DNA of 64,000 nt from IMG/VR virus record IMGVR_UViG_3300032254_000001, positions 96,001-160,000 of that record; one strand, written 5' to 3'. Shown in pieces: positions 1 through 14,985 of this stretch (its first letter is position 1; every line of letters begins with the position of its first letter). The position numbers and the translations under genes are program-made. This stretch comes from a virus (taxonomy: Duplodnaviria; Caudoviricetes). A model generated the notes under the pieces. It ran no database searches, was not told the DNA's origin, and saw only the letters and a list, made by a program, of their open reading frames with translations.

Positions 1-467
1 CTACCTGCGTACTGCAAGTATTTCTCAGCACCAAGTTTTGCAACTGCATATGGTGCGTTAGGGTTAGCTTCGGTCTCCGGATCAAACGCAACAAAGTCAA
101 CTGGTCTACCAAACTGTTCAACTTCGTCACTAATTGGCTGATGGCCATATACTTCCATAGTGCTAGCAAATATAAAGTTAACAAAATCATCACAATGCTT
201 GTTAACACTCTCAATGAGATTCACAGTTCCTGTGTAGTTAATTTCACTAAATGTAATTTGCTCGTAAAAGCTTTTCTGTACTTCTGTACGTGCTGCAAGG
301 TGCAATACCATGTTAGGATTAAATTCCTTAACCTCGGCCTCAACATCATCGTAATCTCTAAGATCACTTTTAAGTTCATGTATTACGAACTTATGACTTA
401 GTGACGGTATGATATGAGAACCGAGAAATCCATCTGCTCCTGTTACTAGCAATCGGGTATTAAACAT
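1..467 (-). CDS. NAD-dependent epimerase/dehydratase (partial, runs off window start)
   Basis: Hand-translated, not in ORF track: MFNTRLLVTGADGFLGSH (GxxGxxG), HLAA, ASTMEVYG, catalytic YAVAK. Confidence 0.9.
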   Translation of the reverse strand, partial: MFNTRLLVTGADGFLGSHIIPSLSHKFVIHELKSDLRDYDDVEAEVKEFNPNMVLHLAARTEVQKSFYEQITFSEINYTGTVNLIESVNKHCDDFVNFIFASTMEVYGHQPISDEVEQFGRPVDFVAFDPETEANPNAPYAVAKLGAEKYLQYAG

Positions 468-1098
468 TTATTGTTATCTCTCTAAGGTCAGGGTAGCTCT
501 TGTACCCTTTATCACCAAGGTCGGTGATCTCGTTATTGGCTAATTTGTTTAAGCCAATAACGGCGTCTTCTGGGCGCATCATATAATGATACCCAACAAC
601 GAATTCTTTCTGGTCTATCCATCGATCAAAACTTAAATCACGTCCATCGTATGATGCACGTTTAAGCCACTCGTATGCTTTCTTATCATTAGTAAGTATA
701 GCACCACCGTGGCCAATTTCTAATGGCTTACCGTGTCCAAATGATAAACACACAATCTTCTTTTGATTAGGATTATCTAATTGGAACATATCTTTTTCAA
801 AACGTCTAGCACTATCGTAAACAATAGAACCTTCAATCCTGTAATCTTTATCCCACTCTTCATCTGTCATCATGTACTCAATGCCAAGTTTCTTCAATGT
901 CATTGGAACACTAAGGTAAGTGTGTGCTGGAATTGTTGCGTACAGCTTAGGCATTGTATAACGCAACCCAAGTTCAATTGCATGTGAGCAACTGTCGGTA
1001 GCAATAACACCACTGGCGCCTGTAAACTCAGCTAGCTCTTTTTCAAACTCTGATACTGCATCATATGGGTTACTGTAATCACTTATTTCTTTTTTCAT
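460..1098 (-). CDS. Short DegT/DnrJ/EryC1/StrS-family PLP aminotransferase
   Basis: FEKELAEF..ATDSCSHA, DSAR, SFGHGKPLEIGHGG (PLP Lys); only 212 aa. Confidence 0.8.
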   Translation of the reverse strand: MKKEISDYSNPYDAVSEFEKELAEFTGASGVIATDSCSHAIELGLRYTMPKLYATIPAHTYLSVPMTLKKLGIEYMMTDEEWDKDYRIEGSIVYDSARRFEKDMFQLDNPNQKKIVCLSFGHGKPLEIGHGGAILTNDKKAYEWLKRASYDGRDLSFDRWIDQKEFVVGYHYMMRPEDAVIGLNKLANNEITDLGDKGYKSYPDLREITINV

Positions 1099-2059
1099 AA
1101 TAATCCTTAGTTGACATAATAATGGTTTCTAAATCGCTAAATGCTAATTTCTGGCCTTGCTCTTCTTCAAACTTACTAGCGTCTGCTACTAGTGAATCTG
1201 GATCGCCTGCACGTCGTGGACGATAGCAAATATCAAACGGTGTAACGTACTTAAAGAATGCGTTGACAACTTCTTGGTTACTGTAGCCTGTGCTAGTACC
1301 AAGGTTGTATGTTTTTGATTTGCCACCACTGGATAGAACTTCACAGGCCCTAAGGTGTGCTAAGGCTAAGTCGCATACGTGTATGTAATCTCTTACACAC
1401 GTACCGTCTGGTGTATCGTAATCGTCGCCGTAAATAGAAAACACTTTGCCTTCCATTTGTGCTTCGAATATGCGCGGAATTAAGTGAGTGTCACCTGGCT
1501 CTGGACCGAGCTCATTATCCCAAACGTCCGCACCTGCTGCATTAAAGTATCTGAAACAAAAGTTTCGCATACCGTACGCTGCATCGTAATCACGCAGTAT
1601 ATGTTCAATCATCATCTTTGTATTGCCATATGGATTGACCGGCTTGGTGATCGATGATTCCTTAATAGGTAATTCCGTGGGATTGCCATATACTGCGGCA
1701 CTGCTACTGAATACAATGAATGGTTTATGTTTCCATTTCTTCATGTGGTCCAACATGCGAATAGTTCTGACTACATTGTTATTGTAGTATTCGCTTGGAT
1801 CTAAAACACTCGGACCAACGAGACTTGTTCCAGCACAATGCACAACTCCATCTACTCCGAACTCTTCCATCATATCAAGGATTTCATAGTCGTCGTAGTT
1901 TGACATGTAGAATTTTGTACCTTCTACTTTATTTTGTTCGACATAACGATTGTCGATTGTATAGACCTTTGCTCCTGCTGCTCGCAAAGACTTTGCAGTG
2001 TGGCTACCTACATAGCCACGACCACCTGTTACTAAAATTGTTACACCCTCTAATCTCAT
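1079..2059 (-). CDS. galE: UDP-glucose 4-epimerase
   Basis: TGGRGYVGSH, FSSSAAVYG, YGNTK, RYFNAAGA, DGTCVRDYIHV. Confidence 0.92.
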   Translation of the reverse strand: MRLEGVTILVTGGRGYVGSHTAKSLRAAGAKVYTIDNRYVEQNKVEGTKFYMSNYDDYEILDMMEEFGVDGVVHCAGTSLVGPSVLDPSEYYNNNVVRTIRMLDHMKKWKHKPFIVFSSSAAVYGNPTELPIKESSITKPVNPYGNTKMMIEHILRDYDAAYGMRNFCFRYFNAAGADVWDNELGPEPGDTHLIPRIFEAQMEGKVFSIYGDDYDTPDGTCVRDYIHVCDLALAHLRACEVLSSGGKSKTYNLGTSTGYSNQEVVNAFFKYVTPFDICYRPRRAGDPDSLVADASKFEEEQGQKLAFSDLETIIMSTKDYYEKRNK

Positions 2060-2277
2060 TTCTTACTCGCTATGTTGAATACGCTACAAGTAGCATTATA
2101 GCGCGATTCACGAGTAGATGCATCCGTTATGAGCAAATCTTTTTGTGTCTTTAACCGAAATATAAGGCCACGTAGCTCTTCTGCTGTCCAATTATCCTGT
2201 TCAGCAACTTTAGCCAAAATGTCTATGTCCATGCAGGTTAACGCTGCTACTTGTTGGTACTCATCCATCGTAATCAA
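2056..2277 (-). CDS. Hypothetical protein
   Basis: Overlaps both neighbouring genes in operon style. Confidence 0.6.
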   Translation of the reverse strand: MITMDEYQQVAALTCMDIDILAKVAEQDNWTAEELRGLIFRLKTQKDLLITDASTRESRYNATCSVFNIASKK

Positions 2278-2770
2278 GCTCGTCGATTATAATGCCATTG
2301 CTTTCACTTGCATAGCCACGTACTCTGTCAAATGCATCGCCCCATCGTTCTTCTAATTCTGGAGGACATTTTGGTGCAACAAAACGAGTAATACCAGATT
2401 GCAACATGTGAACATAACATCTGTCACATGACAGGAAAGGGTATGTGTACAGTGTGTAACCTTGCAGTGATTGATCTTGTGCAAAGTTCACAGCATTCAT
2501 TTCGCAATGAATGATACGACTGTACTTTTCTTCTCTATTATTGTAAAACTGATCCGCGTCCGGCATTGCACGTGGAAAACCATTAAAGCCTACTGACGCA
2601 ATACTTTTGTCAGGACGTACAATTACCGCACCTGTTTGTGTGCTCGGATCCTTCGACCAAGTTGATGCTAACTTAGCCATGTCTAGGAATCGTTGATCCC
2701 ATTTATCTAATTTACTCATATCTTTATCATCACTGCCAATGCCAGCCAGTAGTATTCTAGCATCATTCAT
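2261..2770 (-). CDS. dCMP deaminase
   Basis: SKDPSTQTGAVIV, GFNG, HCE and PxxxCxxC zinc motifs. Confidence 0.92.
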   Translation of the reverse strand: MNDARILLAGIGSDDKDMSKLDKWDQRFLDMAKLASTWSKDPSTQTGAVIVRPDKSIASVGFNGFPRAMPDADQFYNNREEKYSRIIHCEMNAVNFAQDQSLQGYTLYTYPFLSCDRCYVHMLQSGITRFVAPKCPPELEERWGDAFDRVRGYASESNGIIIDELDYDG

Positions 2771-2778
2771 GGTAACTC

Positions 2779-3105
2779 CTACGGTGTTTTTGAACGTGTG
2801 ACTGTTGCTTGCTGCACTGCATCGTCTTCACATTCTGCGTACTTAGGCACATCTCTATTATTAGTAAGTGCCATAACTGTTAGCATTTGTTCGTATGCTT
2901 CTTTAACAGCTGGGTCTTGTGATGCACGGACCTTATTCATTACAGTCATATCACTAGCAAACTGTTCCAAGCTTATTGTCGGAGAGTGTGACATTGATAC
3001 AATGTTAACCGTTGTTTTCGTTAGACCAGGAGTAGAGAATTCATCTCGCTCAATGTTTACTGCTTGAATCCAAAGTCCGTAATGAGAAAGGTCCGCGTCA
3101 ATCAT
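2779..3105 (-). CDS. Hypothetical protein; C-terminal DPAVKEAYEQ motif resembles the 9.3-10.5 kb array
   Basis: Start moved to the ATG at 3105 overlapping the upstream stop. Confidence 0.6.
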   Translation of the reverse strand: MIDADLSHYGLWIQAVNIERDEFSTPGLTKTTVNIVSMSHSPTISLEQFASDMTVMNKVRASQDPAVKEAYEQMLTVMALTNNRDVPKYAECEDDAVQQATVTRSKTP

Positions 3106-4274
3106 TTGAATTTCGCTCCTGCTACTTCGTCTCTGTAGCGCATGTCGTTTCGCTTCCATTCTGCACCGTTGCCTTCCATGATGTCAATGCAGCGATCAAT
3201 CGTACCGTTGGTCCAGTCACTAATCTTACCCATGTTCGGATGAGCTTCATCTAACAATGGTAGCATCTTGCTAATAGCATCGTCTATGCTCCAAGGCACG
3301 TATAAACGATCTGCGTCGTTTGCAAACGTTTCAGGAAATGATCTGTATGCTGGGTAAAGTACATTACAACCTAATGCATCAGCTTCACTTACTGTGTTAC
3401 TAACCCAATCCTGCAATGCACAATTGAACATTATACGACTATTGTTTACAATTCCGTAGTACTCGTTCTTCTTTAAGTTTTCGTGTATTTCTAACTTGCC
3501 TTCACGTTCAAGGTGTCTTGCACGAACAACGTACTTTTCGTTATTACTACGTAGCGGACCACCTTGCATAATTGCAAACTTAACAGTTGGATCTATGTCG
3601 TGCATCTTTTCAATTAAGTCCATGTAAAAGTCTGGTTGCTTTTCCTGGTCCCAACGTGCGCCAAATACTACACGGCGTTCGCGATCTTCAAATGATTTTA
3701 TTTGCGGTACACGAATTTGTACTTCGTCTTTACCAAATGCAAGTCCGCTAATGTTATACAGTGGAGCCTTCCAACGTGCTACTTTCATGTTCGCAATCAT
3801 TTCTTCATTGGTTGCAAGTACACTAACGTTAGGCATAGCATTGATCATATCTTCGTAATGATCCATCCAGTCCATACCCCATACGTGAACAAAGTCATCT
3901 GGGTCAACGCGCTGTGCTAATGTACGCACAAATATCTGCGGACGATCACGTTCTGGAATCTGGCACATAATGTAACCTAATGACTCCATGCCAGGACTAA
4001 ACATATCCTCAAAAAAGATACAGTCTTCGCCTGTCACTTCACCACTACGCATCATCTGAACTAAGTTCATCATCTGCGACATACTGAAAAATGATCTGCC
4101 ATGTGCATCGAGAACCTGTCCGACTTGAATGGACTTCGTATTGTCTATTTCCTGACCGGGGACAATTACATAGTCGATCCCACGCTTTTTAAATGCGCGT
4201 TCACTCCAGTCCTGTAATTGTAACGTGTAACGGCCTTCATAGCTCTCCAGGCCCATGTAGATCAATTTTCTCAT
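3102..4274 (-). CDS. GT-B glycosyltransferase
   Basis: RWDQEKQPDF, FNCALQDWVSNTVSEADALG..LYPAYRSFPE (GT1/GT4-type sugar-nucleotide-binding C-domain). Confidence 0.8.
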   Translation of the reverse strand: MRKLIYMGLESYEGRYTLQLQDWSERAFKKRGIDYVIVPGQEIDNTKSIQVGQVLDAHGRSFFSMSQMMNLVQMMRSGEVTGEDCIFFEDMFSPGMESLGYIMCQIPERDRPQIFVRTLAQRVDPDDFVHVWGMDWMDHYEDMINAMPNVSVLATNEEMIANMKVARWKAPLYNISGLAFGKDEVQIRVPQIKSFEDRERRVVFGARWDQEKQPDFYMDLIEKMHDIDPTVKFAIMQGGPLRSNNEKYVVRARHLEREGKLEIHENLKKNEYYGIVNNSRIMFNCALQDWVSNTVSEADALGCNVLYPAYRSFPETFANDADRLYVPWSIDDAISKMLPLLDEAHPNMGKISDWTNGTIDRCIDIMEGNGAEWKRNDMRYRDEVAGAKFK

Positions 4275-5071
4275 GTTTGTTTCCTATTATAATTTTGTAA
4301 TGCACGACCTACTAGATCGTCATTGTCGATATCTGTAGATAGTGTAACATATCTAAAGCTTTCTTGCAAGTCACGGTATTCGCAATATTGCCGTTTCAGT
4401 GCATTAGTATCTGTGATTTCCGTATCTAAAAACTGTGCAATCTCTTGCATAGAATTCATAAAAGTATCAACGTTAACAAAGTCTAAGTAATCTAAATTGA
4501 ATACACGACTATCGTTAATTGGTTCTTTGTATTTGCTGTGGTATTCACTAAACTCTTGTTCAAGTGTTATAGTAATAGCATCAATTATCTGCTCGTCCGT
4601 TAACCCTTTTATAGTGTCATCGTTGAGTATTGAATTTTTATACGTGAACTTATTGTTCTTGCGTTGTACATTATACACTGCCATTAACTCTGCTAACACG
4701 CTAGGAGTATAAACTCTAACTGCTTTAGCATCTGGGTATCTATCTAAGAGCCAGGTAGTGTTATCGTTTCGTGTGCCTTGATCGCATAGTACGACAAGTG
4801 TTTTGTTTAGTACGTCTACGTCTTCTAATAGTTCTAATTGGAAGTCGAAGTCTTTGTATGTTTTGCCTGGATTCTCTCTAAGAAACCTAGGTAGGTGATA
4901 CGTGCGAATGTACTTTGCGCTGTGTGCATTGCCCGTCTCGGCAATGGTTGTTGTTTGTGCATTAACTGTACTGCTGAAGTAATCAGTTAATATTTTGTGC
5001 AAAAAGTGACCAGCACCACCCGACGGGTACATTATTAGTACAATGCCAGGCGATGCTTGATCGAGTGACAC
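4271..5071 (-). CDS. Sulfotransferase-like/P-loop hypothetical protein
   Basis: N-terminal IMYPSGGAGHFL resembles a 5'-PSB loop; similar start to 30340..31050. Confidence 0.4.
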   Translation of the reverse strand: MSLDQASPGIVLIMYPSGGAGHFLHKILTDYFSSTVNAQTTTIAETGNAHSAKYIRTYHLPRFLRENPGKTYKDFDFQLELLEDVDVLNKTLVVLCDQGTRNDNTTWLLDRYPDAKAVRVYTPSVLAELMAVYNVQRKNNKFTYKNSILNDDTIKGLTDEQIIDAITITLEQEFSEYHSKYKEPINDSRVFNLDYLDFVNVDTFMNSMQEIAQFLDTEITDTNALKRQYCEYRDLQESFRYVTLSTDIDNDDLVGRALQNYNRKQT

Positions 5072-5074
5072 TAC

Positions 5075-5332
5075 TTATTTGTTACCACGGTATGGACGAC
5101 CTGTTGGACGTCGGTGGAATCTGTTTAAGTCAAATTCCCATTGATTTTTACAATTCTTTCCATTGCGGAATTTATTGTACTGCTGGAACGGATATGTACG
5201 CATGTTGTACAAATCTTGTTCGTTAAACTTATACCCGTGACTTACGCAGAATGCGCGGTAAGCTTCTAGGTCCTTCCATACCTGTTCAGTGCGTGGGTTC
5301 TTTTTAGTAGTGTTTCTGTATGACTTAGCCAT
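5075..5332 (-). CDS. Hypothetical basic protein
   Basis: ORF with RBS, in operon. Confidence 0.65.
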   Translation of the reverse strand: MAKSYRNTTKKNPRTEQVWKDLEAYRAFCVSHGYKFNEQDLYNMRTYPFQQYNKFRNGKNCKNQWEFDLNRFHRRPTGRPYRGNK

Positions 5333-5359
5333 AGTGTTTCCCTTGTGTAAGGTTTATAG

Positions 5360-5776
5360 TTATAATGTGTATTGTGTTGTTGATCCGTTTTCATTATCTT
5401 CGCTTACGCTAATAATGATCTCACGGCCGGGGTACTTCATTGCAATTTTCTCAAATAGATCATCGCTAATCATCTCGCATGACTTGTTATCAAGCTGCAA
5501 AATTCCTTCTTTAAACAATCCTTCGCAGTATCGTTTAAATTGTATAAATTCAATATCTCGGTCGTCATGCACCACTGCTATGCGTACCTCGAAATGAAAT
5601 ATATGTCTGTGTTCGTTTGCTAAAAAGCTAACGTCTTCTAAGTTTGTATCAGTAGCTGCTGCTGGGTATGCATGTATGCCTTCTCTTTGAAAGCGTACCC
5701 AAATACTTTTTCCTGCACGATTCAATCTCGATGCCACTGTGTCAAACTTTGCTTGTATTCTCTGTTCTGTATCCAT
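5360..5776 (-). CDS. QueD-like T-fold protein (DpdL-like)
   Basis: LANEHRHIF matches LxxxHRHxF; DRDIEFIQFKR; SCEMI; SEDNENG; located beside a TGT-like gene. Confidence 0.75.
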   Translation of the reverse strand: MDTEQRIQAKFDTVASRLNRAGKSIWVRFQREGIHAYPAAATDTNLEDVSFLANEHRHIFHFEVRIAVVHDDRDIEFIQFKRYCEGLFKEGILQLDNKSCEMISDDLFEKIAMKYPGREIIISVSEDNENGSTTQYTL

Positions 5777-5815
5777 AGTATATTATAACATACTCTTAAT
5801 GTAATGTGTTAATGT

Positions 5816-6343
5816 TTAGATGATCTTGTCATCTTTGTATTTCTTCCAGTTAGTGTACTTGGTGTGATCCATTAAGTCGTGTAACTTATGGCACCATACA
5901 CCTGGGTTGCTCGCCTGGAAATCTTTGTCGTCTATCTTAACTGTTGCGTTGTAACCAAGTTGGTTAGCGTAAGGAATCTTAACACTAATCATTGGAATGA
6001 AGTTTGGATGTTCTGATAAACCTGATTCAGCAAATCCTTCAACATGTTTAACATCAAAGTCAAGTGTACACCAAAAGTCATCTGGATGATCTAAAACTTC
6101 TTTTATCATTTTTTCCCAAGGGATCCATGATTCATCGTTGCCAGTTACATCAAAGCTCATGTTAGCACCGAAGTATACTGCCTTGCATCCGAGTGTATTT
6201 GCACGTTTAAGGATTTCACTTACAGGTTGAATGCCAACAACAAATAAAGTCTTTAACTGATATGCTGGAGTGTGTTCGACTTCGTACCCAACAAAGAAAT
6301 CTGTGTTTTCGTTATGGTCTTGATTTTCGTATTCGCGTTTCAT
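5816..6343 (-). CDS. Hypothetical protein within the dpdA-like cluster
   Basis: 175 aa ORF between the TGT-like and QueD-like genes. Confidence 0.7.
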   Translation of the reverse strand: MKREYENQDHNENTDFFVGYEVEHTPAYQLKTLFVVGIQPVSEILKRANTLGCKAVYFGANMSFDVTGNDESWIPWEKMIKEVLDHPDDFWCTLDFDVKHVEGFAESGLSEHPNFIPMISVKIPYANQLGYNATVKIDDKDFQASNPGVWCHKLHDLMDHTKYTNWKKYKDDKII

Positions 6344-6795
6344 TTACTTTCCTCTATTCCTAAGTCTACTAAGCGGAACTCAATATCCCCAGGGCCTATT
6401 TTAAATGCTTCTTCACCTAGTGCTTTGCGTAAAACATCATGTCTTTCATGTGTTAATGCTGTACCGATGTATTCGCCTTTGTGGTATATTTCCCAGTTAA
6501 ACTTTGAATTGTCTAGCTTCTTAGCTTCTTCAATTACCTGTCTGTTCATTTCACGTGCTGTGTTTAATGTTAAGAAATCTTCAGCACACAATGCTGCCTG
6601 CGCCCAGCCAATAAAACGATTTGCCTTAGCGCCAGTAACCTTACCGTAATACACTTGTTCAAGTATATCCTGTATATGACGTGCGCTTAATGCATGTTTG
6701 GTTTCAACGAATTCAGTTGATTCCCAGTCTACTAAGTCTAAGCACTTCTGTGCCATTAATTGTTCTTCAGTCATACAAACCTCATTTTTATCCAA
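6340..6795 (-). CDS. Hypothetical protein
   Basis: ORF in operon. Confidence 0.6.
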   Translation of the reverse strand: MDKNEVCMTEEQLMAQKCLDLVDWESTEFVETKHALSARHIQDILEQVYYGKVTGAKANRFIGWAQAALCAEDFLTLNTAREMNRQVIEEAKKLDNSKFNWEIYHKGEYIGTALTHERHDVLRKALGEEAFKIGPGDIEFRLVDLGIEESK

Positions 6796-6971
6796 GCATT
6801 AGATATCTTACATCTAGTCCACTTTTCTTCCCACGATGCTTCTGTGAGCCATTTTGTTTCAATTATCCTGCTGCCATCTTCTTGTGAACTTTCAATAGTT
6901 AACGGAAACAACAAGAACTTTGTTACTGTCCTGTATGTTCCTAATGGCGGCTCTACTCTTTTGCGTTGCAT
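6771..6971 (-). CDS. Small hypothetical protein
   Basis: Abuts the TGT-like gene stop. Confidence 0.5.
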   Translation of the reverse strand: MQRKRVEPPLGTYRTVTKFLLFPLTIESSQEDGSRIIETKWLTEASWEEKWTRCKISNAWIKMRFV

Positions 6972-8554
6972 TAATCACCAAAGTCAAATAAGTTAGTAGC
7001 TTCTTCCGCAACTTGCGTCTTGGTTTTGCTAGGTTTCATAATTAAGTGAGCTTCTTCTGCAAGCTCTGCTTGTGCCTCATCGAGGTCAAACATAGCATCA
7101 AAGCTGGCTGCGGCATTAATAGCTTTCTTGCCACCCATACCACGCGCACCGCTGATGCCCATAAAGAACTTAGAATACATATCAAGTATTGCTAGGCGTT
7201 CTTCGTATACATTAGTTGAGAATACTGCATCTATTATATTTGTTATTGTGACACCAGTATTCTCGTCTACTAACATTTTAGGCAGACAACCACTATCGTA
7301 TTGGCGGTTCGCTTCCTGTACACTGTTAATGTGGTGCCAAACATTGTGGCCCATCATTAATGCATACGAGAAACTATCCCAAGAAGTCTTCCCTTCCTTA
7401 CCGACCTTATTAAGGTCACCTGGAGCATATACACAGACGTCTTTCATTTGTAGGTGTTCACTAATAGGACTATCTTCAAAGAGGTCGTGTATTCCATCTG
7501 CAACTGTACCATCACTGAATTTGCGTGTATCTTTTGCATACGCCTTGTTATCAGCAGTGGGGTTCATACGATATGACCATTTACCCGATTTATTCTTCTT
7601 AGTTAAGGTTCTATAGTCTGGGGTGACGGTCTCGTGATATATCTGCCCGTTGGCAGTAGCAAGGAACGGGCTTGCACAATCGAAACTAATTGTAAAGTTT
7701 GGATTATGTGTGCGTCGTACAGCTCGTTGCAATGCTGTTAGTAGTACTGCCCACTCTAGTTTACTTGTTCCTAGGAAGTGCATCCAATCCTGTTTGCCTT
7801 CTTCAAGTAAACCATCATGTATCAATGTTACTACTCTTTTAATAGCCAGGTGTGGGTCTGCCATGTTAGCACCACCCATTGCCCAACCTTTAAAATAATT
7901 TTCGTGCTTAGTTGGATCGCTGTATTCTTTCATCTCTTCGTACCAACGATCCGCATCGGAATGATTTGAACCTTGTAATACATTTAAGAACTTAGCATTG
8001 TTCGTTGCATGTTTCATAAAGTATTCGTGGTTGTATTTTGTTGCATCAACTGCATCTTGATAAGTTTTGATGTTTGTCTTTTTAACAGACTCAGCGTTGG
8101 TGCAAGTCCATGTTGGAATATCAAGTGTCATGCTGTAGTCGCTAATGTTACACAACCATTTCAGTACAGTACTTCTGTACTTCTCAGCTTTAGGACAATT
8201 AGGATCTGCCCAGTCTGCTTCCCATACGCCTTTAGCAATCTGGAAACCACCTGAGTCAGCTAGCAATAATGTATCACTGCTACGCTTACGAATCATGTTT
8301 TCCTTTGGTACGTCCTTAGTTAAATCTAAGTTAGCATGACCTGCTGAATACAATCCCCATCTGTACTTAAACAATCCGTCCTTGTTATTAAAGAAGTTCA
8401 TCATTTCCATATCCGGAATGCCTGTTGGCATACGCGAAGGTGGAACATAGTTAGGATCGTCTTGCTGTTTGCCTATGTAAGTTGAGTAAAACGAACTAAT
8501 AGCAGGTAAGAATACTGCATAATCGTTCTGTTCATTTGTTAAATTTTTATTCAT
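6971..8554 (-). CDS. dpdA: tRNA-guanine transglycosylase-fold protein, DpdA-like DNA deazaguanine transglycosylase
   Basis: DSGGFQI, TLDIP, NVLQG, GWAMGG, HFLG, SFDCASPF; no CxCxxC zinc site of tRNA TGT. Confidence 0.8.
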   Translation of the reverse strand: MNKNLTNEQNDYAVFLPAISSFYSTYIGKQQDDPNYVPPSRMPTGIPDMEMMNFFNNKDGLFKYRWGLYSAGHANLDLTKDVPKENMIRKRSSDTLLLADSGGFQIAKGVWEADWADPNCPKAEKYRSTVLKWLCNISDYSMTLDIPTWTCTNAESVKKTNIKTYQDAVDATKYNHEYFMKHATNNAKFLNVLQGSNHSDADRWYEEMKEYSDPTKHENYFKGWAMGGANMADPHLAIKRVVTLIHDGLLEEGKQDWMHFLGTSKLEWAVLLTALQRAVRRTHNPNFTISFDCASPFLATANGQIYHETVTPDYRTLTKKNKSGKWSYRMNPTADNKAYAKDTRKFSDGTVADGIHDLFEDSPISEHLQMKDVCVYAPGDLNKVGKEGKTSWDSFSYALMMGHNVWHHINSVQEANRQYDSGCLPKMLVDENTGVTITNIIDAVFSTNVYEERLAILDMYSKFFMGISGARGMGGKKAINAAASFDAMFDLDEAQAELAEEAHLIMKPSKTKTQVAEEATNLFDFGD

Positions 8555-11280: not shown

Positions 11281-12228
11281 CTATTCGTCTACAATTTGTC
11301 CTAACGTCTTGCCACCTTTAAGTGATGTGAGTGTGCCTGGCTTCTTAAGCGCAAACCAAGAGACTCGATCTGTTGTTACTGACTCGACAATTTCGAAGCC
11401 AGCGCATTCGCATACCCTTCCTAACATAACTCCAGGTGTGTAACAGTACAAACCTTCTTCAAAGTTTCTTGCTCCAGCTGGTAAGTCACAATTGTTATAC
11501 GTAAACAATAAGTGACCGCCCGGCTTTAACAGCTCAAACGATTCTGCTAGGTACTGCCTAATAACATCCATTGGCTTGAAATTTATAAAGTGCTCCATGA
11601 CAATTAACCCAATCTGTCCTTTCGGAACTAAGTTAGTTAAGAACTGTTCTTTATTCTCATTAATCTGTTTGAATCGAATTGTTTCGTACAGACTTCCGGG
11701 TAAGTTTTCTTTAAGCCAACCAGTAACATCGCATTGTTCCATAACATAAAAGACATCACTCGCTTTAAGTGCATTAAAGAACCTAAGAGAGTTAGGCCTA
11801 ACATATACTGTTGCATGATGCCAAGACGAAAACTGTCGGATTGTTGAAACAAACTTATGTTCGCTCTCCTCGTTGTCAACAAACTGATCAAGCGATCTGT
11901 ACTTTGCTGCTTCCTCTAGATTGAACCAATCCTTGCGTTCGTCATACATGTCGTAGCTAGTGTTAAGTGGTTCCTTAGATAACTGTTGCATTAATGTATT
12001 TGCAGTAATTTTTATTTTATCTATGTCTTCGACTAATGATGTGGTATCGTTCAGTATTGCAAAGATGTCCTCATCAATTTCGTCTAAGTCAATTGCTAAG
12101 TCACTGTCTTTCAAGTCGCGTATATTATCCCTAATATCAGAAAGTTTTTTGTCAAGAGCTATTAGCTCTGGAGTGATATTCCAATTATCGATTGTTAACT
12201 TCTGTGTTAGTAAGTCGCTTAATTTCAT
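11281..12228 (-). CDS. Coiled-coil + class I SAM methyltransferase-like protein
   Basis: LLKPGGHLLFTYN and AGFEIV C-terminal strands; motif I degenerate. Confidence 0.55.
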   Translation of the reverse strand: MKLSDLLTQKLTIDNWNITPELIALDKKLSDIRDNIRDLKDSDLAIDLDEIDEDIFAILNDTTSLVEDIDKIKITANTLMQQLSKEPLNTSYDMYDERKDWFNLEEAAKYRSLDQFVDNEESEHKFVSTIRQFSSWHHATVYVRPNSLRFFNALKASDVFYVMEQCDVTGWLKENLPGSLYETIRFKQINENKEQFLTNLVPKGQIGLIVMEHFINFKPMDVIRQYLAESFELLKPGGHLLFTYNNCDLPAGARNFEEGLYCYTPGVMLGRVCECAGFEIVESVTTDRVSWFALKKPGTLTSLKGGKTLGQIVDE

Positions 12229-14985
12229 TTAAAACTCAAATAGGTTACCGAATGTACTACTCGTATCAGTATGTGCTTTTAAATCCCAATCCAGCACACC
12301 AAGCAAGTTGTCAACCTTTTGGTCAATAACTGTTGCTTCCATTGTTGCATCATCAAATGGTAAATCCTTAAACCACTGCGGAATATTATTCTCATCCGTA
12401 GGACGAGCGACACTTGTAATGTTCAGCGGGTTGTCTTTTAACCTACAAATAATTGCCTTACTACCGTCAGTTATTGCCATAGTAAAGTTATCATTGTACA
12501 AGTTGCGAAGATTATTGTAGTTATAACCAGCACGTACATGACCGGGCAACCTTGCCTTTTCACCTTTCTTCTGTGCTGCTCTTTCCTGTGCGCTGTACAT
12601 TGTTAGGTTGTTAATACGCTTAGGAGATCCTTTCTCCCATGATGGTAATGCACCAAACTCTTTCTTAAACTCAAGTATTTGATCAATTACTTTCTCTTTA
12701 CCAAGTTCGTTAAGTGTAGAGTCAAGTATGTCCTTTAAGAACTCTTGTACTACAGGCGGAGTATCAGAACGTTTTAAGTCTAATCCCATTGCCTTAACTT
12801 TACCTGGCTTACCATCAACATCAAGTCGCTTGCCTTCATTATCAACAACCATAATTGCATAACGTTTCTTGGTTATAAACAAACCATTCACGCCAACAAC
12901 TTCTCGTCCGCACTTAATAAGTTCGCCGTAGTGGGTAGGACAATTAAATGCCCTGTGCATGTACGGTGGAAAACTTATATTACACTCTTCTGCTAAACTG
13001 TCGTAGAGTGCAATAGCGATGTCTACGTCCCATTCCTGCTGTCCTGATTCTACTGCGTCTTTAACTACAGGCCATGCTGTAAAGTAAGCTGAGTCAGTAT
13101 CACCGTAAACAATGCATTCACCAACATGATCATATTCGCCGGTAAGACATTGGTTAACTTGTGCATCCATGTGCTGTGCAATTGCTCGTCCTGTAAGTGT
13201 TGTAGACTGCCCGATACGTTTATCAAAGAAACGACAATGCTCGTTTAAGATAGCGCCGTACAGTGAGTTCAAGTTGATCTTTTTAACTAACTGTCGCTTA
13301 TCCCAGTACTCAACATCTGCATCTAAGCCTGCTGCAATAGCTTGCTTTAACTTGGCCTGCATTTCTTTACGCTCTGCGTACCAACGTTTTAACAGGTTTG
13401 GAATAATACCGGGATTCTTTAAACTAAAGATAGTACCGTTCGCAGATACAATCCAAGGTTGATCACTATTGAATATTAAATCATGTGCATCCTTAGCAGT
13501 CATTGTTGAATCGCCTGCTAGTTTAGCAAACGTAGATAGGTCATCAGATGTCTTTGGTTCCCAGTCAATGGTAACTTGTACGTCATCGCGACGTTCCATG
13601 ACTGCTGTGTATTCTAGACTACCGAACAAACCTTCCCAAGCTGCTGCAAATGAACAACCCTTTTTCTTTTTAGACTTACCGTTAGCTGCCTGTATAACCT
13701 TGTCGGCCATTTTATCAGCAATGTACTTGTCTGTTTCAATTGGTCGTAACTGTCCAACAATAGTTTCAGGAGCCATGTTACATGCTTGAATAGCAGATGG
13801 ATATAGACTGTTAATATCGACTGAGCCAATCCACTTATGTAAACCCTTCTTAGGATATGCTACATATGCGCCTGCTGCCTGTGTATTTTCATCTTCTCCG
13901 TAACGTACTTTGTCTGGCACAACAAAACCTTGTTCATGCGCTTCGTTGATAATTGCTTGCTCTGTTACTGCAACCGCACCCATAGTCTTAGGAATAAGAA
14001 CTGTGTTTTCGTGTGCAACTGAGTTAGCTAAGTCAATGAACTTTAACTTCTGATCCAGTTTATGCAGTAGCATGGTATCTTGTTGGTTGTATTCAATGAA
14101 CTTCGGAAAGTCCCTGTTGTACAATGCATCAAGCGAACCTTCGTATGCAACCTTAGTTTCGTTAAGTTCGTATTCGCCTATTGAATCTAAGCTGTACGAT
14201 GGCATTTCGTGATATGTGTACTTGCGATATAGCTGCATGTAATCCATATGGATACGACCAGTTAAATCGTACGTAATATTCTCGCCACCAAAGCGTTCAA
14301 ACGTGCGCTTCTTGGGAAGTTTATCCCACAAACAAAAACGTCTTGTATCATCCTTAGACAGCACTCGTGCAATACGATTAACCATGTACGGAATATCGTA
14401 GCCTTCACTGTTCCATCCACTTAGTACATCTGCATCTTCGATAATATCAAGGAAGTCTTTAAGCATTTCCTTTTCGTCTGTGTACAGGATTGTATTTTCG
14501 TATCTGCTACATATCTCTTTTGCTTCAAGCGGAGACATGTGCTGTGGTGCGATAACCTGTGTAACAAGTTGATCAGTCCAGTTAAGGTACGTTGAAATAG
14601 CTGTTACTTTGTTGAACGGATCAGTTACGGGACTAAATCCTTTTTCAGTATCAAAGTCTACCTCGATATCGAAAAATGCTGTTTGTAAGTCTGGAAACTC
14701 TGCGCCTCTGTAATTCCGTTCAAGGCAACGTGCAATAGGTTGGAAGTCGCTTTCGAACAACTGCGAGCCGCCGTGCATACGCTTTTCTTTTTGATACTCT
14801 TTATGTGAGTTTGATGTAAACTTATTAAGTTTATTGCCGTACACTGACTTATGCTTGCCGCGTGGATCGCTATAGAAAAACGTGTACTCTGCCGGGTACT
14901 CGACAAAGACACGCTTACCGTGTACTCTTTCTACAACAAATACCGTGTCTTTATCTTTATCGTATCTAGCGTCTACGAAACTCAT
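12229..14985 (-). CDS. Family B DNA polymerase (gp43-like)
   Basis: ExoI FFDIEV, ExoII GWNSEGYDIPY, DINSLYPS, KINLNSLYG, YGDTDS, KKRY. Confidence 0.97.
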   Translation of the reverse strand: MSFVDARYDKDKDTVFVVERVHGKRVFVEYPAEYTFFYSDPRGKHKSVYGNKLNKFTSNSHKEYQKEKRMHGGSQLFESDFQPIARCLERNYRGAEFPDLQTAFFDIEVDFDTEKGFSPVTDPFNKVTAISTYLNWTDQLVTQVIAPQHMSPLEAKEICSRYENTILYTDEKEMLKDFLDIIEDADVLSGWNSEGYDIPYMVNRIARVLSKDDTRRFCLWDKLPKKRTFERFGGENITYDLTGRIHMDYMQLYRKYTYHEMPSYSLDSIGEYELNETKVAYEGSLDALYNRDFPKFIEYNQQDTMLLHKLDQKLKFIDLANSVAHENTVLIPKTMGAVAVTEQAIINEAHEQGFVVPDKVRYGEDENTQAAGAYVAYPKKGLHKWIGSVDINSLYPSAIQACNMAPETIVGQLRPIETDKYIADKMADKVIQAANGKSKKKKGCSFAAAWEGLFGSLEYTAVMERRDDVQVTIDWEPKTSDDLSTFAKLAGDSTMTAKDAHDLIFNSDQPWIVSANGTIFSLKNPGIIPNLLKRWYAERKEMQAKLKQAIAAGLDADVEYWDKRQLVKKINLNSLYGAILNEHCRFFDKRIGQSTTLTGRAIAQHMDAQVNQCLTGEYDHVGECIVYGDTDSAYFTAWPVVKDAVESGQQEWDVDIAIALYDSLAEECNISFPPYMHRAFNCPTHYGELIKCGREVVGVNGLFITKKRYAIMVVDNEGKRLDVDGKPGKVKAMGLDLKRSDTPPVVQEFLKDILDSTLNELGKEKVIDQILEFKKEFGALPSWEKGSPKRINNLTMYSAQERAAQKKGEKARLPGHVRAGYNYNNLRNLYNDNFTMAITDGSKAIICRLKDNPLNITSVARPTDENNIPQWFKDLPFDDATMEATVIDQKVDNLLGVLDWDLKAHTDTSSTFGNLFEF

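What the first reader, a model, noticed from the sequence alone, without database searches (positions are those of the whole stretch)
3102..8554. DpdA-like + DpdL-like + GT-B glycosyltransferase cluster: candidate new 7-deazaguanine DNA hypermodification
Seen: a TGT-fold gene (DSGGFQ, no zinc site), a QueD-like gene with LxxxHRHxF, an unknown 175-aa gene and a GT-B glycosyltransferase are co-transcribed. FolE, canonical QueD, QueE and QueC are not in this window. Established: phage DpdA proteins insert 7-deazaguanines into DNA; from recall, QueD-like DpdL proteins are linked to CDG decarboxylation. Inference: the linked glycosyltransferase and unknown gene could add a sugar or a new substituent, giving a derivative outside the known preQ0/preQ1/G+/ADG/CDG/DG set.
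Basis: partly seen in the sequence, partly recalled or inferred. Interest (0 to 1): 0.78.

Follow-up and report, generated by a model that had tools for sequence, protein, structure and literature searches.

The report
Sugar transferase inside phage deazaguanine genes
A 344-kb uncultured phage carries the known gene set for swapping guanine in its DNA for 7-deazaguanine, and a sugar-transferring enzyme with its own sugar-activating gene sits inside that set here and in many other phages, which predicts a sugar-bearing purine in DNA that no paper I could find describes.

Summary
On the minus strand of 3102-8554 lie a very divergent TGT-fold gene (DSGGFQ, FDC, no CxCxxC), a DpdL-type QueD paralogue (LANEHRHIF), a conserved 175-aa unknown gene and a GT-B glycosyltransferase.

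The "missing" pathway genes are just outside the window. FolE lies 0.5 kb before its start, QueD 5 kb and a QueE-like gene 10 kb. No QueC is linked. This is the phiST-type 7-deazaguanine (dDG) gene set.

- GT homologues lie beside DpdL in six further cultured phage lineages: PA5oct, ACP17, X1/BUDD, BCSR5, Phosso and BUCT-ZZ01.
- Of 80 GT-anchored viral contigs, 78 carry DpdL.
- Every DpdL-anchored contig with enough downstream sequence (61) carries the GT.
- A true GalE follows the GT in 73 of 80 contigs.

Six DpdL lineages have no GT, including phiST, whose DNA holds plain dDG. The GT is therefore an optional add-on.

My best reading (about 0.5) is a glycosylated 7-deazaguanine-type base in DNA. 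The acceptor atom is unknown and nothing chemical was tested. The GT's fold neighbours act on small molecules, which keeps a rival alive.

The scan had already flagged this module on other DNA (151 notes in at least 104 genomes). I class it as a new variant of a known kind.

The parts
6971..8554 (-). DpdA-like, very divergent TGT-fold base-exchange enzyme (527 aa)
   Evidence: DSGGFQ and FDC motifs. D100, D145 and D292 are invariant in 27 homologues. The AF2 model has pLDDT 86.5. The best fold matches are tRNA-guanine transglycosylases: Foldseek probability 1.0; VIA Z 18.5, rmsd 4.1, 299 residues aligned. There is no Pfam TGT hit, and NCBIfam tgt_general scores only 19 bits. Homologues are PA5oct EST35_0316 (37% identity) and Vibrio phage 2.275.O gp468, both beside deazaguanine genes.
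6771..6971 (-). 66-aa ORF, not conserved; a doubtful gene
   Evidence: No homologue in 160 related loci and no family hit.
6340..6795 (-). 151-aa lineage-specific ORF (phrog_7775, unknown function); a passenger
   Evidence: Matches phrog_7775 at 1.3e-10. Found only in the closest relative, L025.
5816..6343 (-). Conserved 175-aa protein of unknown family; a core member of the module
   Evidence: Present in 70 of 80 GT-anchored loci and 47 of 80 DpdL-anchored loci, with 117 ORF hits in all. An ACP17 homologue scores 3.5e-18. It has 17 invariant columns, including ExE, KxDD and NxGVW. There is no Pfam, NCBIfam, PHROG or PDB sequence match.
5360..5776 (-). DpdL (QueD/PTPS paralogue, proposed 7-carboxy-7-deazaguanine decarboxylase)
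   Evidence: LANEHRHIF matches LxxxHRHxF. It aligns with phiST CGPG_00067 and ACP17 DpdL. H56, H58, H70, E101 and E126 are invariant. It matches phrog_17812 at 1.8e-32.
5075..5332 (-). 85-aa very basic protein (pI 10.1) often found between dpdL and the GT
   Evidence: Present in 59 of 80 DpdL-anchored loci and 30 of 80 GT-anchored loci, at the same position. pI.
4271..5071 (-). 266-aa lineage-specific ORF, unknown; a passenger
   Evidence: Found only in L025, at 31% identity. No family hit.
3102..4274 (-). GT-B (GT4-like) glycosyltransferase of a small phage family tied to dpdL
   Evidence: The AF2 model has pLDDT 93.9. The best fold matches are retaining GT4 enzymes, at Z 24-27 with 320-340 residues aligned. 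R207, K212 and E297 are conserved. The family has 778 representatives among 1.84 billion proteins. Synteny with dpdL.
1079..2059 (-). UDP-glucose 4-epimerase GalE, the likely supplier of the GT's donor sugar
   Evidence: TIGR01179 galE scores 318.5 bits against a cut-off of 262.3. It lies directly downstream of the GT in 73 of 80 GT-anchored loci.
460..1098 (-). Short DegT/LegC-type aminotransferase-like ORF (212 aa); an optional sugar-tailoring gene, possibly decayed
   Evidence: Pfam DegT_DnrJ_EryC1 at 2.1e-16, covering only parts of the model. Present in 17 of 80 loci.
1..467 (-). 3' part of a second SDR sugar-nucleotide dehydratase/epimerase gene (genome 95535-96467, 310 aa)
   Evidence: Pfam Epimerase at 2.3e-40; the best NCBIfam hits are dTDP-glucose 4,6-dehydratase and LegB, both below their cut-offs.

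Best explanation
The region is the core of a phage DNA-modification module of the DpdL type.

**Proposed pathway**
1. FolE, QueD and a QueE-like radical-SAM enzyme, all just before the window's start, make 7-carboxy-7-deazaguanine from GTP.
2. DpdL processes it. The published proposal is decarboxylation to 7-deazaguanine.
3. The divergent TGT-fold DpdA-like enzyme exchanges guanine in phage DNA for the deazapurine.
4. A GT4-type glycosyltransferase then adds a hexose to the deazaguanine-derived base. GalE sits beside it, so the donor is probably UDP-galactose or UDP-glucose. The 175-aa protein and the small basic protein may assist.

The sugar could be added on DNA, or on the free base before insertion. 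Either way the DNA would carry a sugar-bearing purine that shields it from host nucleases.

**Shown here**
- The folds, motifs, homologies and gene linkage.

**Inferred**
- Every enzymatic step.
- DNA rather than RNA as the target.
- The donor sugar.
- That the sugar reaches DNA at all.

The acceptor atom is unknown.
For: **Pathway set.** FolE scores 206 bits and QueD 91 bits with CxxxHGH. The QueE-like gene hits five QueE models. DpdL carries its signature. The DpdA-like protein has a TGT fold. No linked QueC was found.

**Precedent.** The same gene set in phiST gives complete dDG replacement by mass spectrometry (PMC10516641).

**Modified G in a GT-bearing relative.** PA5oct has homologues of the DpdA-like, GT, DpdL and QueE genes in one row. 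Its DNA resists several G-containing restriction sites. It is hit by modification-dependent END nucleases, including one reported to target only phages with modified G (PMC12191111).

**GT linkage.**
- A GT homologue lies beside dpdL in BUCT-ZZ01 (68% identity). At 20-24% identity it does so in X1/BUDD, BCSR5, PA5oct, Phosso and ACP17. Gene order differs among these phages.
- Of 80 GT-anchored viral contigs, 78 carry DpdL and 76 the DpdA-like gene.
- All 61 DpdL-anchored contigs with enough downstream sequence carry the GT, at a median 250 bp after dpdL.
- GT relatives at about 30% identity still sit with DpdL, QueD or QueE-like genes.

**The GT looks functional.** The model is a confident GT-B fold, the Arg/Lys/Glu positions are conserved, and thousands of homologues are 65-85% identical.

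**Donor supply.** A true GalE lies directly downstream in 73 of 80 loci.

**Location.** The module sits in the replication gene block, just after the family B DNA polymerase. The same holds in PA5oct, X1, ACP17 and Phosso.
Against: - No chemistry was tested, and no run with raw reads holds this phage.
- 7-Deazaguanine has no hydroxyl or similar handle at C7, so the acceptor is unexplained.
- DpdL's decarboxylase activity has never been shown. The authors could not detect dDG with phiST or ACP17 dpdL plus dpdA in E. coli.
- The GT's nearest structures all act on small molecules or sugars: BshA, MshA, sucrose-phosphate synthase, SenB and tetrahydrobiopterin glucosyltransferase. It is also acidic, with pI 5.1.
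- Six DpdL lineages have no GT anywhere in their genomes: phiST, RHph_I1_18, Ahp1, Bakedbeans, D479 and MA9V-3. The GT is therefore not needed for the basic modification.
- Most of the 160 viral contigs are relatives of this phage, so they are not independent observations.
Confidence: 0.5

Rival explanations
1. The DNA carries plain 7-deazaguanine (dDG), as in phiST. The GT works on a small molecule of the same pathway that never enters DNA. Examples are a pterin or deazapurine intermediate or by-product, in the way cyanobacterial BGluT glucosylates tetrahydrobiopterin. Its role would be to trap, detoxify or store that molecule.
For: - The GT's structural neighbours are small-molecule GT4 enzymes. 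Two tetrahydrobiopterin glucosyltransferases are among them, at Z 24.6 and 23.7.
- FolE and T-fold (PTPS-like) enzymes are also the first steps of pterin synthesis (established knowledge).
- The GT is acidic.
- dDG offers no obvious acceptor.
- Phages without the GT still carry DpdL.
Against: - The GT is only about 10% identical to BGluT, and Z values across many GT4 enzymes are tied within 2-3 units. The fold therefore does not single out pterins.
- DpdL lacks the catalytic Cys of QueD and PTPS.
- Tight linkage to a DNA or RNA base-exchange enzyme, inside the replication block, is hard to explain for a metabolite side-reaction.
- High conservation of the GT argues for an important role.
Confidence: 0.25
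2. The TGT-like enzyme acts on tRNA, from the phage or the host, not on DNA. The GT then glycosylates the inserted 7-deazaguanine derivative, as vertebrate cells galactosylate or mannosylate queuosine in tRNA.
For: - All solved structures that match the DpdA-like model are tRNA enzymes.
- Sugar-bearing queuosine in tRNA is established knowledge, recalled from memory.
Against: - The homologous DpdL gene set in phiST modifies DNA completely.
- PA5oct DNA itself is restriction-resistant at G-containing sites.
- The protein misses the Pfam TGT model and the NCBIfam Tgt cut-offs, and has no zinc motif.
- A full private GTP-to-CDG pathway plus a phosphoribosyltransferase-like gene suits bulk DNA modification better than a few tRNA positions.
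Confidence: 0.07
3. The GT and the sugar genes are unrelated to the deazaguanine genes. They would serve, for example, virion protein or host surface glycan modification, and lie there only by shared ancestry of the contigs sampled.
For: - This genome has other sugar genes nearby: a UGDH-like gene, a second SDR and a DegT-like gene.
- Most sampled contigs are related phages.
Against: - Linkage to dpdL persists at 20-30% GT identity in unrelated phage lineages with rearranged gene order.
- GT-anchored sampling recovers DpdL in 78 of 80 contigs.
- Among the 14 phage genomes I searched, the GT occurs only in those that also carry DpdL.
Confidence: 0.08

Closest known systems
DpdL-type dDG system of Cellulophaga phage phiST (FolE, QueD, QueE, DpdL, DpdA3; Cui, Hutinet et al., NAR 2023, PMC10516641)
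   Same: - The same precursor genes, with no linked QueC.
- A DpdL with the LxxxHRHxF signature.
- A very divergent TGT-like base-exchange enzyme next to it.
- Placement near the DNA polymerase.
   Different: - phiST has no GT, no GalE and no 175-aa gene.
- Its DpdA3 is 259 aa and shows no significant profile match to the 527-aa protein here (hhalign probability 1.3%).
- phiST DNA holds unsubstituted dDG.
PA5oct-like Pseudomonas jumbo phages (Wroclawvirus), modified G of unknown chemistry (PMC12191111)
   Same: - Closest cultured homologue of the DpdA-like protein (37% identity).
- The same row of DpdA-like, GT, DpdL and QueE genes.
- DNA reported as resistant at G-containing sites.
   Different: - The GT is only about 21% identical.
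- The DpdL motif reads HFH rather than HRH.
- No adjacent GalE and no 175-aa homologue were detected.
- The preprint names QueE and a PTPS homologue but not the GT or the DpdA-like gene.
T-even phage hydroxymethylcytosine glucosylation (T4 alpha- and beta-glucosyltransferases)
   Same: The same two-layer logic: a replaced base is then decorated with a UDP-hexose-derived sugar by a GT-B enzyme. The sugar layer is optional and varies among relatives (established knowledge).
   Different: - In T4 the base is a pyrimidine with a hydroxymethyl acceptor, made at the nucleotide level before replication.
- Here the base is a purine analogue, put in by base exchange, with no known acceptor group.
- The T4 enzymes were not among the 50 best structural matches that were listed (see Tried and rejected).
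Glycosylated queuosine in vertebrate tRNA (galactosyl- and mannosyl-queuosine)
   Same: A sugar is placed on a 7-deazaguanine derivative that a TGT-family enzyme has inserted into a nucleic acid (established knowledge, from memory).
   Different: - That target is RNA, not DNA.
- The acceptor there is the cyclopentenediol of queuosine, and no gene here could make it.
- The enzymes are unrelated cellular ones.
UDP-glucose:tetrahydrobiopterin glucosyltransferase BGluT (PDB 5zes, 9v0l)
   Same: A GT4-like fold, at Z 23.7-24.6 over about 320 residues. Its acceptor derives from the FolE and PTPS-type pathway.
   Different: - About 10% identity.
- Its score is tied with many other GT4 enzymes.
- BGluT is a cellular enzyme for a free pterin and has no link to TGT-like or QueE genes.

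Membership tests
DpdA (DNA 7-deazaguanine transglycosylases, TGT superfamily) | TGT-type (beta/alpha)8 barrel fold | tested here: met
   AF2 pLDDT 86.5. Foldseek gives probability 1.0 to Z. mobilis TGT, with 180 matches at E<=0.001. VIA gives Z 18.5, rmsd 4.1 and 299 aligned residues over 9-429.
DpdA (DNA 7-deazaguanine transglycosylases, TGT superfamily) | Catalytic aspartates in the DSGGxQ and xDC/xDS motifs | tested here: met
   D100 (DSGGFQ), D145 and D292 (FDC) are invariant in 27 homologues. The motifs align with DSGGLQ, D-IP, HxLG and YDS of the X1/ACP17/BCSR5/BUCT-ZZ01 DpdA group (hhalign E 1.1e-4, probability 56%). Equivalence to TGT Asp102 and Asp280 rests on the motifs, not on a residue-level superposition.
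DpdA (DNA 7-deazaguanine transglycosylases, TGT superfamily) | Encoded with 7-deazaguanine synthesis genes | tested here: met
   FolE, QueD and a QueE-like gene lie 7.5-17 kb downstream of the DpdA-like gene on the same strand. The same holds in PA5oct (QueE) and in Vibrio phage 2.275.O (QueF, QueC, FolE). The DpdA-like gene is present in 76 of 80 and 77 of 80 related loci.
DpdA (DNA 7-deazaguanine transglycosylases, TGT superfamily) | Exchanges guanine in DNA for a 7-deazaguanine base | not testable with these tools
   Needs an enzyme assay or nucleoside mass spectrometry.
DpdA3 subfamily (phiST CGPG_00065 type) | Detectable sequence relationship to phiST DpdA3 | tested here: inconclusive
   hhalign of the 27-row profile against phiST DpdA3 gives probability 1.3% and E 0.042, with only a short stretch around the HFLG motif aligned. 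The template was a single sequence, so the test is weak. The lengths are 527 aa against 259 aa.
tRNA-guanine transglycosylase Tgt (Pfam PF01702, NCBIfam TIGR00430/TIGR00449) | Reaches the family's curated score | tested here: not met
   No Pfam hit at E<=0.01, and none in the whole genome at E<=10. tgt_general scores 19.1 bits against a cut-off of 47.6. Q_tRNA_tgt scores 15.6 against 306.75. There is no PDB sequence hit even with the profile.
tRNA-guanine transglycosylase Tgt (Pfam PF01702, NCBIfam TIGR00430/TIGR00449) | CxCxxC...H zinc site | tested here: not met
   No CxCxxC is present anywhere in the 527-aa sequence. After D292 the only nearly invariant Cys is C374.
DpdL (QueD paralogue, proposed CDG decarboxylase) | LxxxHRHxF in place of QueD's CxxxHGH | tested here: met
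   LANEHRHIF at residues 52-60. The motif definition comes from PMC10516641. This genome's canonical QueD keeps C-RHL-HGH.
DpdL (QueD paralogue, proposed CDG decarboxylase) | Homology to the named DpdL proteins of phiST and ACP17 | tested here: met
   blastp gives 2.2e-41 to ACP17 and 6e-12 to phiST; tblastn hits are. The alignment shows invariant H56, H58, H70, E101 and E126.
DpdL (QueD paralogue, proposed CDG decarboxylase) | Genome encodes FolE, QueD, QueE and a DpdA, but no QueC | tested here: met
   Caveat: one divergent QueC-like PP-loop ORF lies 70 kb away. It scores 28 bits against the equivalog cut-off of 150, and it is never linked to the module in 160 related loci.
DpdL (QueD paralogue, proposed CDG decarboxylase) | Decarboxylates 7-carboxy-7-deazaguanine | not testable with these tools
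   This activity has not been shown for any DpdL. The authors' heterologous test gave no dDG.
GT4-type retaining GT-B glycosyltransferases | Two-Rossmann-domain GT-B fold | tested here: met
   AF2 pLDDT 93.9 and pTM 0.91. VIA gives Z 26.6 to sucrose-phosphate synthase (341 aligned) and Z 26.2 to BshA (324 aligned). In all, 959 chains score Z>=8.
GT4-type retaining GT-B glycosyltransferases | Reaches the Pfam Glycos_transf_1 / Glyco_trans_1_2 gathering score | tested here: not met
   17.1 bits against 26.4, and 23 bits against 25. Many homologues at 70-85% identity do carry a precomputed PF00534 hit.
GT4-type retaining GT-B glycosyltransferases | Conserved donor-binding Arg/Lys and Glu in the C-terminal domain | tested here: met
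   R207, E211, K212 and P214 are invariant, and E297 is invariant or nearly so, in alignments that reach down to 20-30% identity. Assigning them to nucleotide-sugar binding is an inference from the GT4 pattern.
Phage DNA glucosyltransferases (T4 AGT/BGT) | Closest structural similarity, DNA base-flipping acceptor site | tested here: inconclusive
   These enzymes are not among the 50 rows listed by Foldseek or VIA. Absence from a list does not exclude the family.
UDP-glucose 4-epimerase GalE | Reaches the NCBIfam equivalog cut-off | tested here: met
   TIGR01179 scores 318.5 bits against 262.3 over residues 8-324.

The most novel reading that the evidence does not exclude
The virion DNA of this phage carries a hexosylated (galactose- or glucose-type) 7-deazaguanine derivative. 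The same would hold for thousands of related environmental phages and for cultured phages such as PA5oct, ACP17, X1, BCSR5, Phosso and BUCT-ZZ01. I could find no paper describing a sugar-bearing purine in natural DNA. The base would be made by a DpdL + GT + 175-aa protein sub-module added to the deazaguanine pathway. It may require an as yet unknown acceptor chemistry at the pyrrole ring or the exocyclic amine.
Probability: 0.4. Interest if true: 0.9.

Novelty: new variant of a known kind. Interest (0 to 1): 0.72.

Why it matters
Known phage DNA sugars sit on hydroxymethyl-pyrimidines, and all eight described deazaguanine DNA bases are sugar-free. A glycosyltransferase locked into the DpdL-type pathway would add a second layer to purine modification.

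- The GT and the DpdA-like family each have about 8,000 or more sequence clusters in public metagenomes, so the module is very common in aquatic phages.
- It may explain why dpdL plus dpdA alone gave no product in E. coli.
- It offers a candidate chemistry for the still unidentified modified G of the therapy-relevant phage PA5oct.
- Several GT-bearing phages are already in culture, so the prediction can be tested with routine nucleoside mass spectrometry.
- New sugar-on-purine enzymes would also be useful tools for DNA labelling.

Tried and rejected
- **Nucleotide search.** megablast of the region against the phage collection gave no match.
- **PDB sequence searches.** The DpdA-like protein and its profile gave none. 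The 175-aa profile gave only chance-level hits.
- **175-aa protein.** It has no Pfam family. The ESM Atlas feature search scored 0.83-0.87, in the range the tool says chance hits often reach, so I did not use it.
- **Complex prediction of the GT with the 175-aa protein.** No verdict. This is not evidence either way.
- **T4 alpha- and beta-glucosyltransferases.** They did not appear among the 50 rows listed by Foldseek or VIA for the GT model. This does not exclude a relationship.
- **Hydroxymethyl-pyrimidine as the GT's acceptor.** The only thymidylate-synthase-family gene is a strong match to Thymidylat_synt (345 bits) and lies 230 kb away. The neighbouring dCMP deaminase is kept in only 1 of 80 related loci. 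I judged this acceptor unlikely, but did not examine the active site.
- **QueC.** The single QueC-like ORF scores far below the QueC cut-off and is never linked to the module.
- **Promoter and terminator scans.** Nothing above shuffles.
- **Sequencing runs.** Only two microbial-mat DNA runs, kept as contigs, hold the stretch. No RNA holder is listed and there are no raw reads, so neither expression nor base-calling errors at G could be examined.
- **Bacterial genomes.** The GT profile found only 7 MAG contigs, 5 of them with DpdL.
- **Supplementary tables of PMC10516641.** Not held, so I could not see which DpdA subfamily the authors assign to ACP17 or PA5oct.

Full report
**Where the window lies**

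The window is bases 96001-160000 of a 344,483-bp viral record with direct terminal repeats. Two microbial-mat metagenome runs hold the stretch. All genes in the first 15 kb are on the minus strand and tightly packed. A family B DNA polymerase gene (12229-14985) lies 3.7 kb upstream of the DpdA-like gene in the direction of transcription.

**Checking the observation**

- The 527-aa ORF at 6971-8554 carries DSGGFQ and FDC and has no CxCxxC motif.
- The 138-aa ORF at 5360-5776 carries LANEHRHIF. This fits the DpdL signature LxxxHRHxF given in Cui, Hutinet et al. 2023 (PMC10516641).
- A 175-aa ORF lies at 5816-6343.
- A 390-aa ORF at 3102-4274 gives weak hits to glycosyltransferase group 1 models.

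Four further ORFs of 266, 85, 151 and 66 aa lie between them. Neighbouring genes overlap, or are separated by gaps of at most 39 bases, and there is no excess of terminator-like sites. This fits one transcript, but no RNA data exist.

**The pathway genes are just outside the window**

Searching the whole phage genome gave the following (genome coordinates), all on the same strand as the finding:
- FolE at 94773-95453, 206 bits.
- A canonical QueD with CxxxHGH at 90198-90758.
- A QueE-like radical-SAM gene at 85199-86074, which hits five different QueE models at its N-terminus and one over its core.

The only QueC-like ORF is 70 kb away and far below the QueC cut-off. It has no counterpart in any of 160 related loci.

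This is the FolE + QueD + QueE + DpdL + DpdA, no-QueC configuration. In Cellulophaga phage phiST that configuration goes with complete replacement of dG by 2'-deoxy-7-deazaguanosine.

**The TGT-like protein**

Sequence models barely see it. Pfam TGT gives nothing, even genome-wide. NCBIfam tgt_general gives 19 bits. The PDB sequence searches give nothing.

An AlphaFold2 model built on 27 homologues is confident (pLDDT 86.5). It matches tRNA-guanine transglycosylases of bacteria, archaea and mammals. Foldseek gives probability 1.0. VIA-align gives Z about 18 over about 300 residues at 16% identity.

D100, D145 and D292 are invariant. They sit in motifs that align with the DSGGLQ, D-IP, HxLG and YDS motifs of the DpdA proteins of X1, ACP17, BCSR5 and BUCT-ZZ01 (hhalign E 1.1e-4).

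Its closest cultured relatives are PA5oct EST35_0316 (37% identity) and Vibrio phage 2.275.O gp468 (32%). The first lies beside a QueE gene. The second lies beside QueF, a YhhQ-type transporter, QueC and FolE.

I could not tie it to the DpdA3 of phiST (hhalign probability 1.3%). I therefore file it as a DpdA-superfamily member of unassigned subfamily. The family is large, with at least 7,965 clusters in public metagenomes, none carrying a Pfam domain.

**DpdL**

The 138-aa protein aligns along its length with the DpdL proteins of phiST and ACP17, which the 2023 paper names, and with homologues in twelve further phage groups. The His and Glu positions are invariant, and Leu replaces QueD's catalytic Cys. 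The proposed decarboxylase activity is unproven for any member.

**The glycosyltransferase**

The model is very confident (pLDDT 93.9) and is a GT-B fold. It is closest to retaining GT4 enzymes, all tied within about 3 Z units:
- sucrose-phosphate synthase, Z 26.6
- BshA, Z 26.2
- MshA, Z 25.5
- SenB, Z 24.7
- tetrahydrobiopterin glucosyltransferases, Z 24.6 and 23.7

R207, K212 and E297 are conserved down to 20% identity.

The family is small and distinct, with 778 representatives at E<=0.001 among 1.84 billion proteins. It is nevertheless abundant, with about 8,000 clusters, many at 65-85% identity.

**The synteny test**

The test is passed.

*Cultured phages.* A GT homologue lies beside dpdL in six further lineages, with different gene orders in different lineages:

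| Phage | GT identity | Position |
|---|---|---|
| Synechococcus phage BUCT-ZZ01 | 68% | immediately after dpdL |
| Xanthomonas phages X1 and BUDD | about 22% | before dpdA |
| Burkholderia phage BCSR5 | about 23% | just before its DpdA gene, 2.7 kb after dpdL |
| PA5oct-like phages | about 21% | between dpdA and dpdL |
| Acidovorax phage ACP17 | about 20% | between dpdA and dpdL |
| Sinorhizobium phage Phosso | about 24% | immediately after dpdL |

A profile built without these sequences finds all six at E 1e-33 to 1e-160.

*Viral contigs anchored on the GT* (80 loci):

| Gene | Loci with it | Note |
|---|---|---|
| DpdL | 78 | |
| DpdA-like | 76 | |
| GalE | 73 | directly downstream of the GT |
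| 175-aa gene | 70 | |
| FolE | 62 | |
| Phosphoribosyltransferase-like gene | 53 | |
| QueE-like gene | 39 | many contigs end before it |

*Viral contigs anchored on DpdL* (80 loci). The DpdA-like gene is in 77 and the GT, by profile, in 61. All 17 loci that have a called DpdL ORF but no GT end within 2 kb after dpdL. The GT starts a median 250 bp after dpdL.

These contigs are mostly relatives of this phage, so the lineage count above is the independent evidence.

*More distant GT relatives* (about 30% identity) still sit with DpdL, DpdA-like, QueD or QueE-like genes. Of seven GT-bearing contigs in 185,579 prokaryotic genomes (all MAGs), five carry DpdL.

**The GT is optional**

Whole-genome profile searches find no GT in phiST, RHph_I1_18, Ahp1, Bakedbeans, D479 or MA9V-3, all of which have DpdL. 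They find none in Vibrio phage 2.275.O either, which has the DpdA-like gene with a QueC/QueF pathway.

RHph_I1_18 has the DpdL closest to ours (60% identity) and no GT. The GT therefore behaves as a facultative extra layer on DpdL-type systems, much as the sugar layer on hydroxymethylcytosine varies among T-even phages.

**Donor supply**

The gene that follows the GT in most relatives is a true GalE here (318.5 bits, above the equivalog cut-off of 262.3). This points to UDP-galactose or UDP-glucose as donor.

This phage also has a second SDR dehydratase/epimerase, a short DegT-like ORF and a short UDP-glucose-dehydrogenase-like ORF. Only a minority of relatives keep them. The sugar may therefore differ between lineages.

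**Best explanation**

The module most likely replaces guanine in phage DNA by a 7-deazaguanine-type base and adds a hexose to it. The sugar could go on after insertion, or on the free base before the DpdA-like enzyme inserts it.

Support beyond synteny:
- The module sits in the replication block here and in PA5oct, X1, ACP17 and Phosso.
- PA5oct DNA is reported to resist G-containing restriction sites. It is also reported to be attacked by modification-dependent END nucleases, including one that hit only G-modified phages (PMC12191111). That preprint does not give the chemistry.
- The conserved phosphoribosyltransferase-like gene could recycle the guanine that base exchange releases. This is inference.

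Weak points:
- No chemistry has been done.
- dDG has no obvious acceptor atom.
- The GT's fold neighbours act on small molecules, and the GT is acidic (pI 5.1).

I put about 0.5 on a sugar reaching DNA.

**Rivals**

- About 0.25: plain dDG in DNA, with the GT acting on a pathway metabolite, as a pterin glycosyltransferase does.
- About 0.07: tRNA rather than DNA is the target.
- About 0.08: the linkage has no functional meaning.

**Novelty**

Searches of the held literature found no paper that links a glycosyltransferase to DpdL or to deazaguanine DNA. The searches combined deazaguanine with glycosyltransferase, glycosylated, galactos- and dDG. The 2023 paper does not mention one, and its text holds no word beginning with 'glycosyl'.

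Within this scan the same module was already noted on other DNA, in 151 notes across at least 104 genomes, with the same reading. Those are AI notes, not independent evidence. All the tests above are my own.

I class it as a new variant of a known kind of system.

Noticed in passing
window 2261-2770 (-): A dCMP deaminase gene (Pfam 3.7e-15, phrog_174) sits between GalE and the GT. It is kept at this place in only 1 of 80 related loci, so it looks like a passenger, not part of the module.
   Followed up: partly
window 460-1098 (-) and genome 91414-92202 (-): Two sugar-pathway ORFs are much shorter than their families. The DegT/LegC-like ORF has 212 aa against about 360. The UDP-glucose-dehydrogenase-like ORF has 262 aa and covers only positions 70-296 of 413. 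They may be decayed or minimal versions.
   Followed up: no
genome 26883-27440 (-), locus L002:1501-2058: A divergent QueC-like PP-loop ORF with SGGFDS and a C-terminal CGECASC motif. It scores 28 bits against the QueC equivalog cut-off of 150. It lies far from the module and is absent from related module loci. Its role is unknown.
   Followed up: partly
genome 86834-87373 (-), locus L003:2834-3373: A phosphoribosyltransferase-like gene (Pfam Pribosyltran 45 bits; xanthine PRTase 36 bits, below cut-off). It is kept in 53 of 80 GT loci, in BUCT-ZZ01 and in PA5oct. It might salvage the guanine released by base exchange, or make a deazapurine nucleotide.
   Followed up: partly
genome 87379-88695 (-), locus L003:3379-4695: A 438-aa FG-GAP repeat protein with a PliI-like stretch lies among the deazaguanine genes. 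It has no counterpart in related loci.
   Followed up: no
L191:8215-9366 (Vibrio phage Bakedbeans gp176) and L193:8443-9324 (Chryseobacterium phage MA9V-3): In these phages DpdL is the C-terminal part of a longer annotated protein (383 and 293 aa). This suggests a fusion with an N-terminal domain that I did not identify.
   Followed up: no
L187 (Logan SRR12203296, 7.9-kb contig): The DpdA-like, DpdL, GT and QueE-like genes lie next to a resolvase and a RES-domain gene. The module may also travel on a non-phage mobile element.
   Followed up: partly
L188-L190, L198, L200: GT relatives at about 27-30% identity lie beside a distant relative of the 175-aa protein, with no detectable DpdL. L188 and L190 also show QueD and QueE-like genes; L189 shows QueD. 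The GT and the 175-aa family may be the tighter pair.
   Followed up: partly
genome 316-326 kb: Thirteen radical-SAM matches occur in the genome, seven of them in one block at 316-326 kb.
   Followed up: no
window 11281-12228 (-): A 315-aa ORF with a weak methyltransferase-domain hit (22.8 bits, below cut-off) lies between the DNA polymerase and the module.
   Followed up: no
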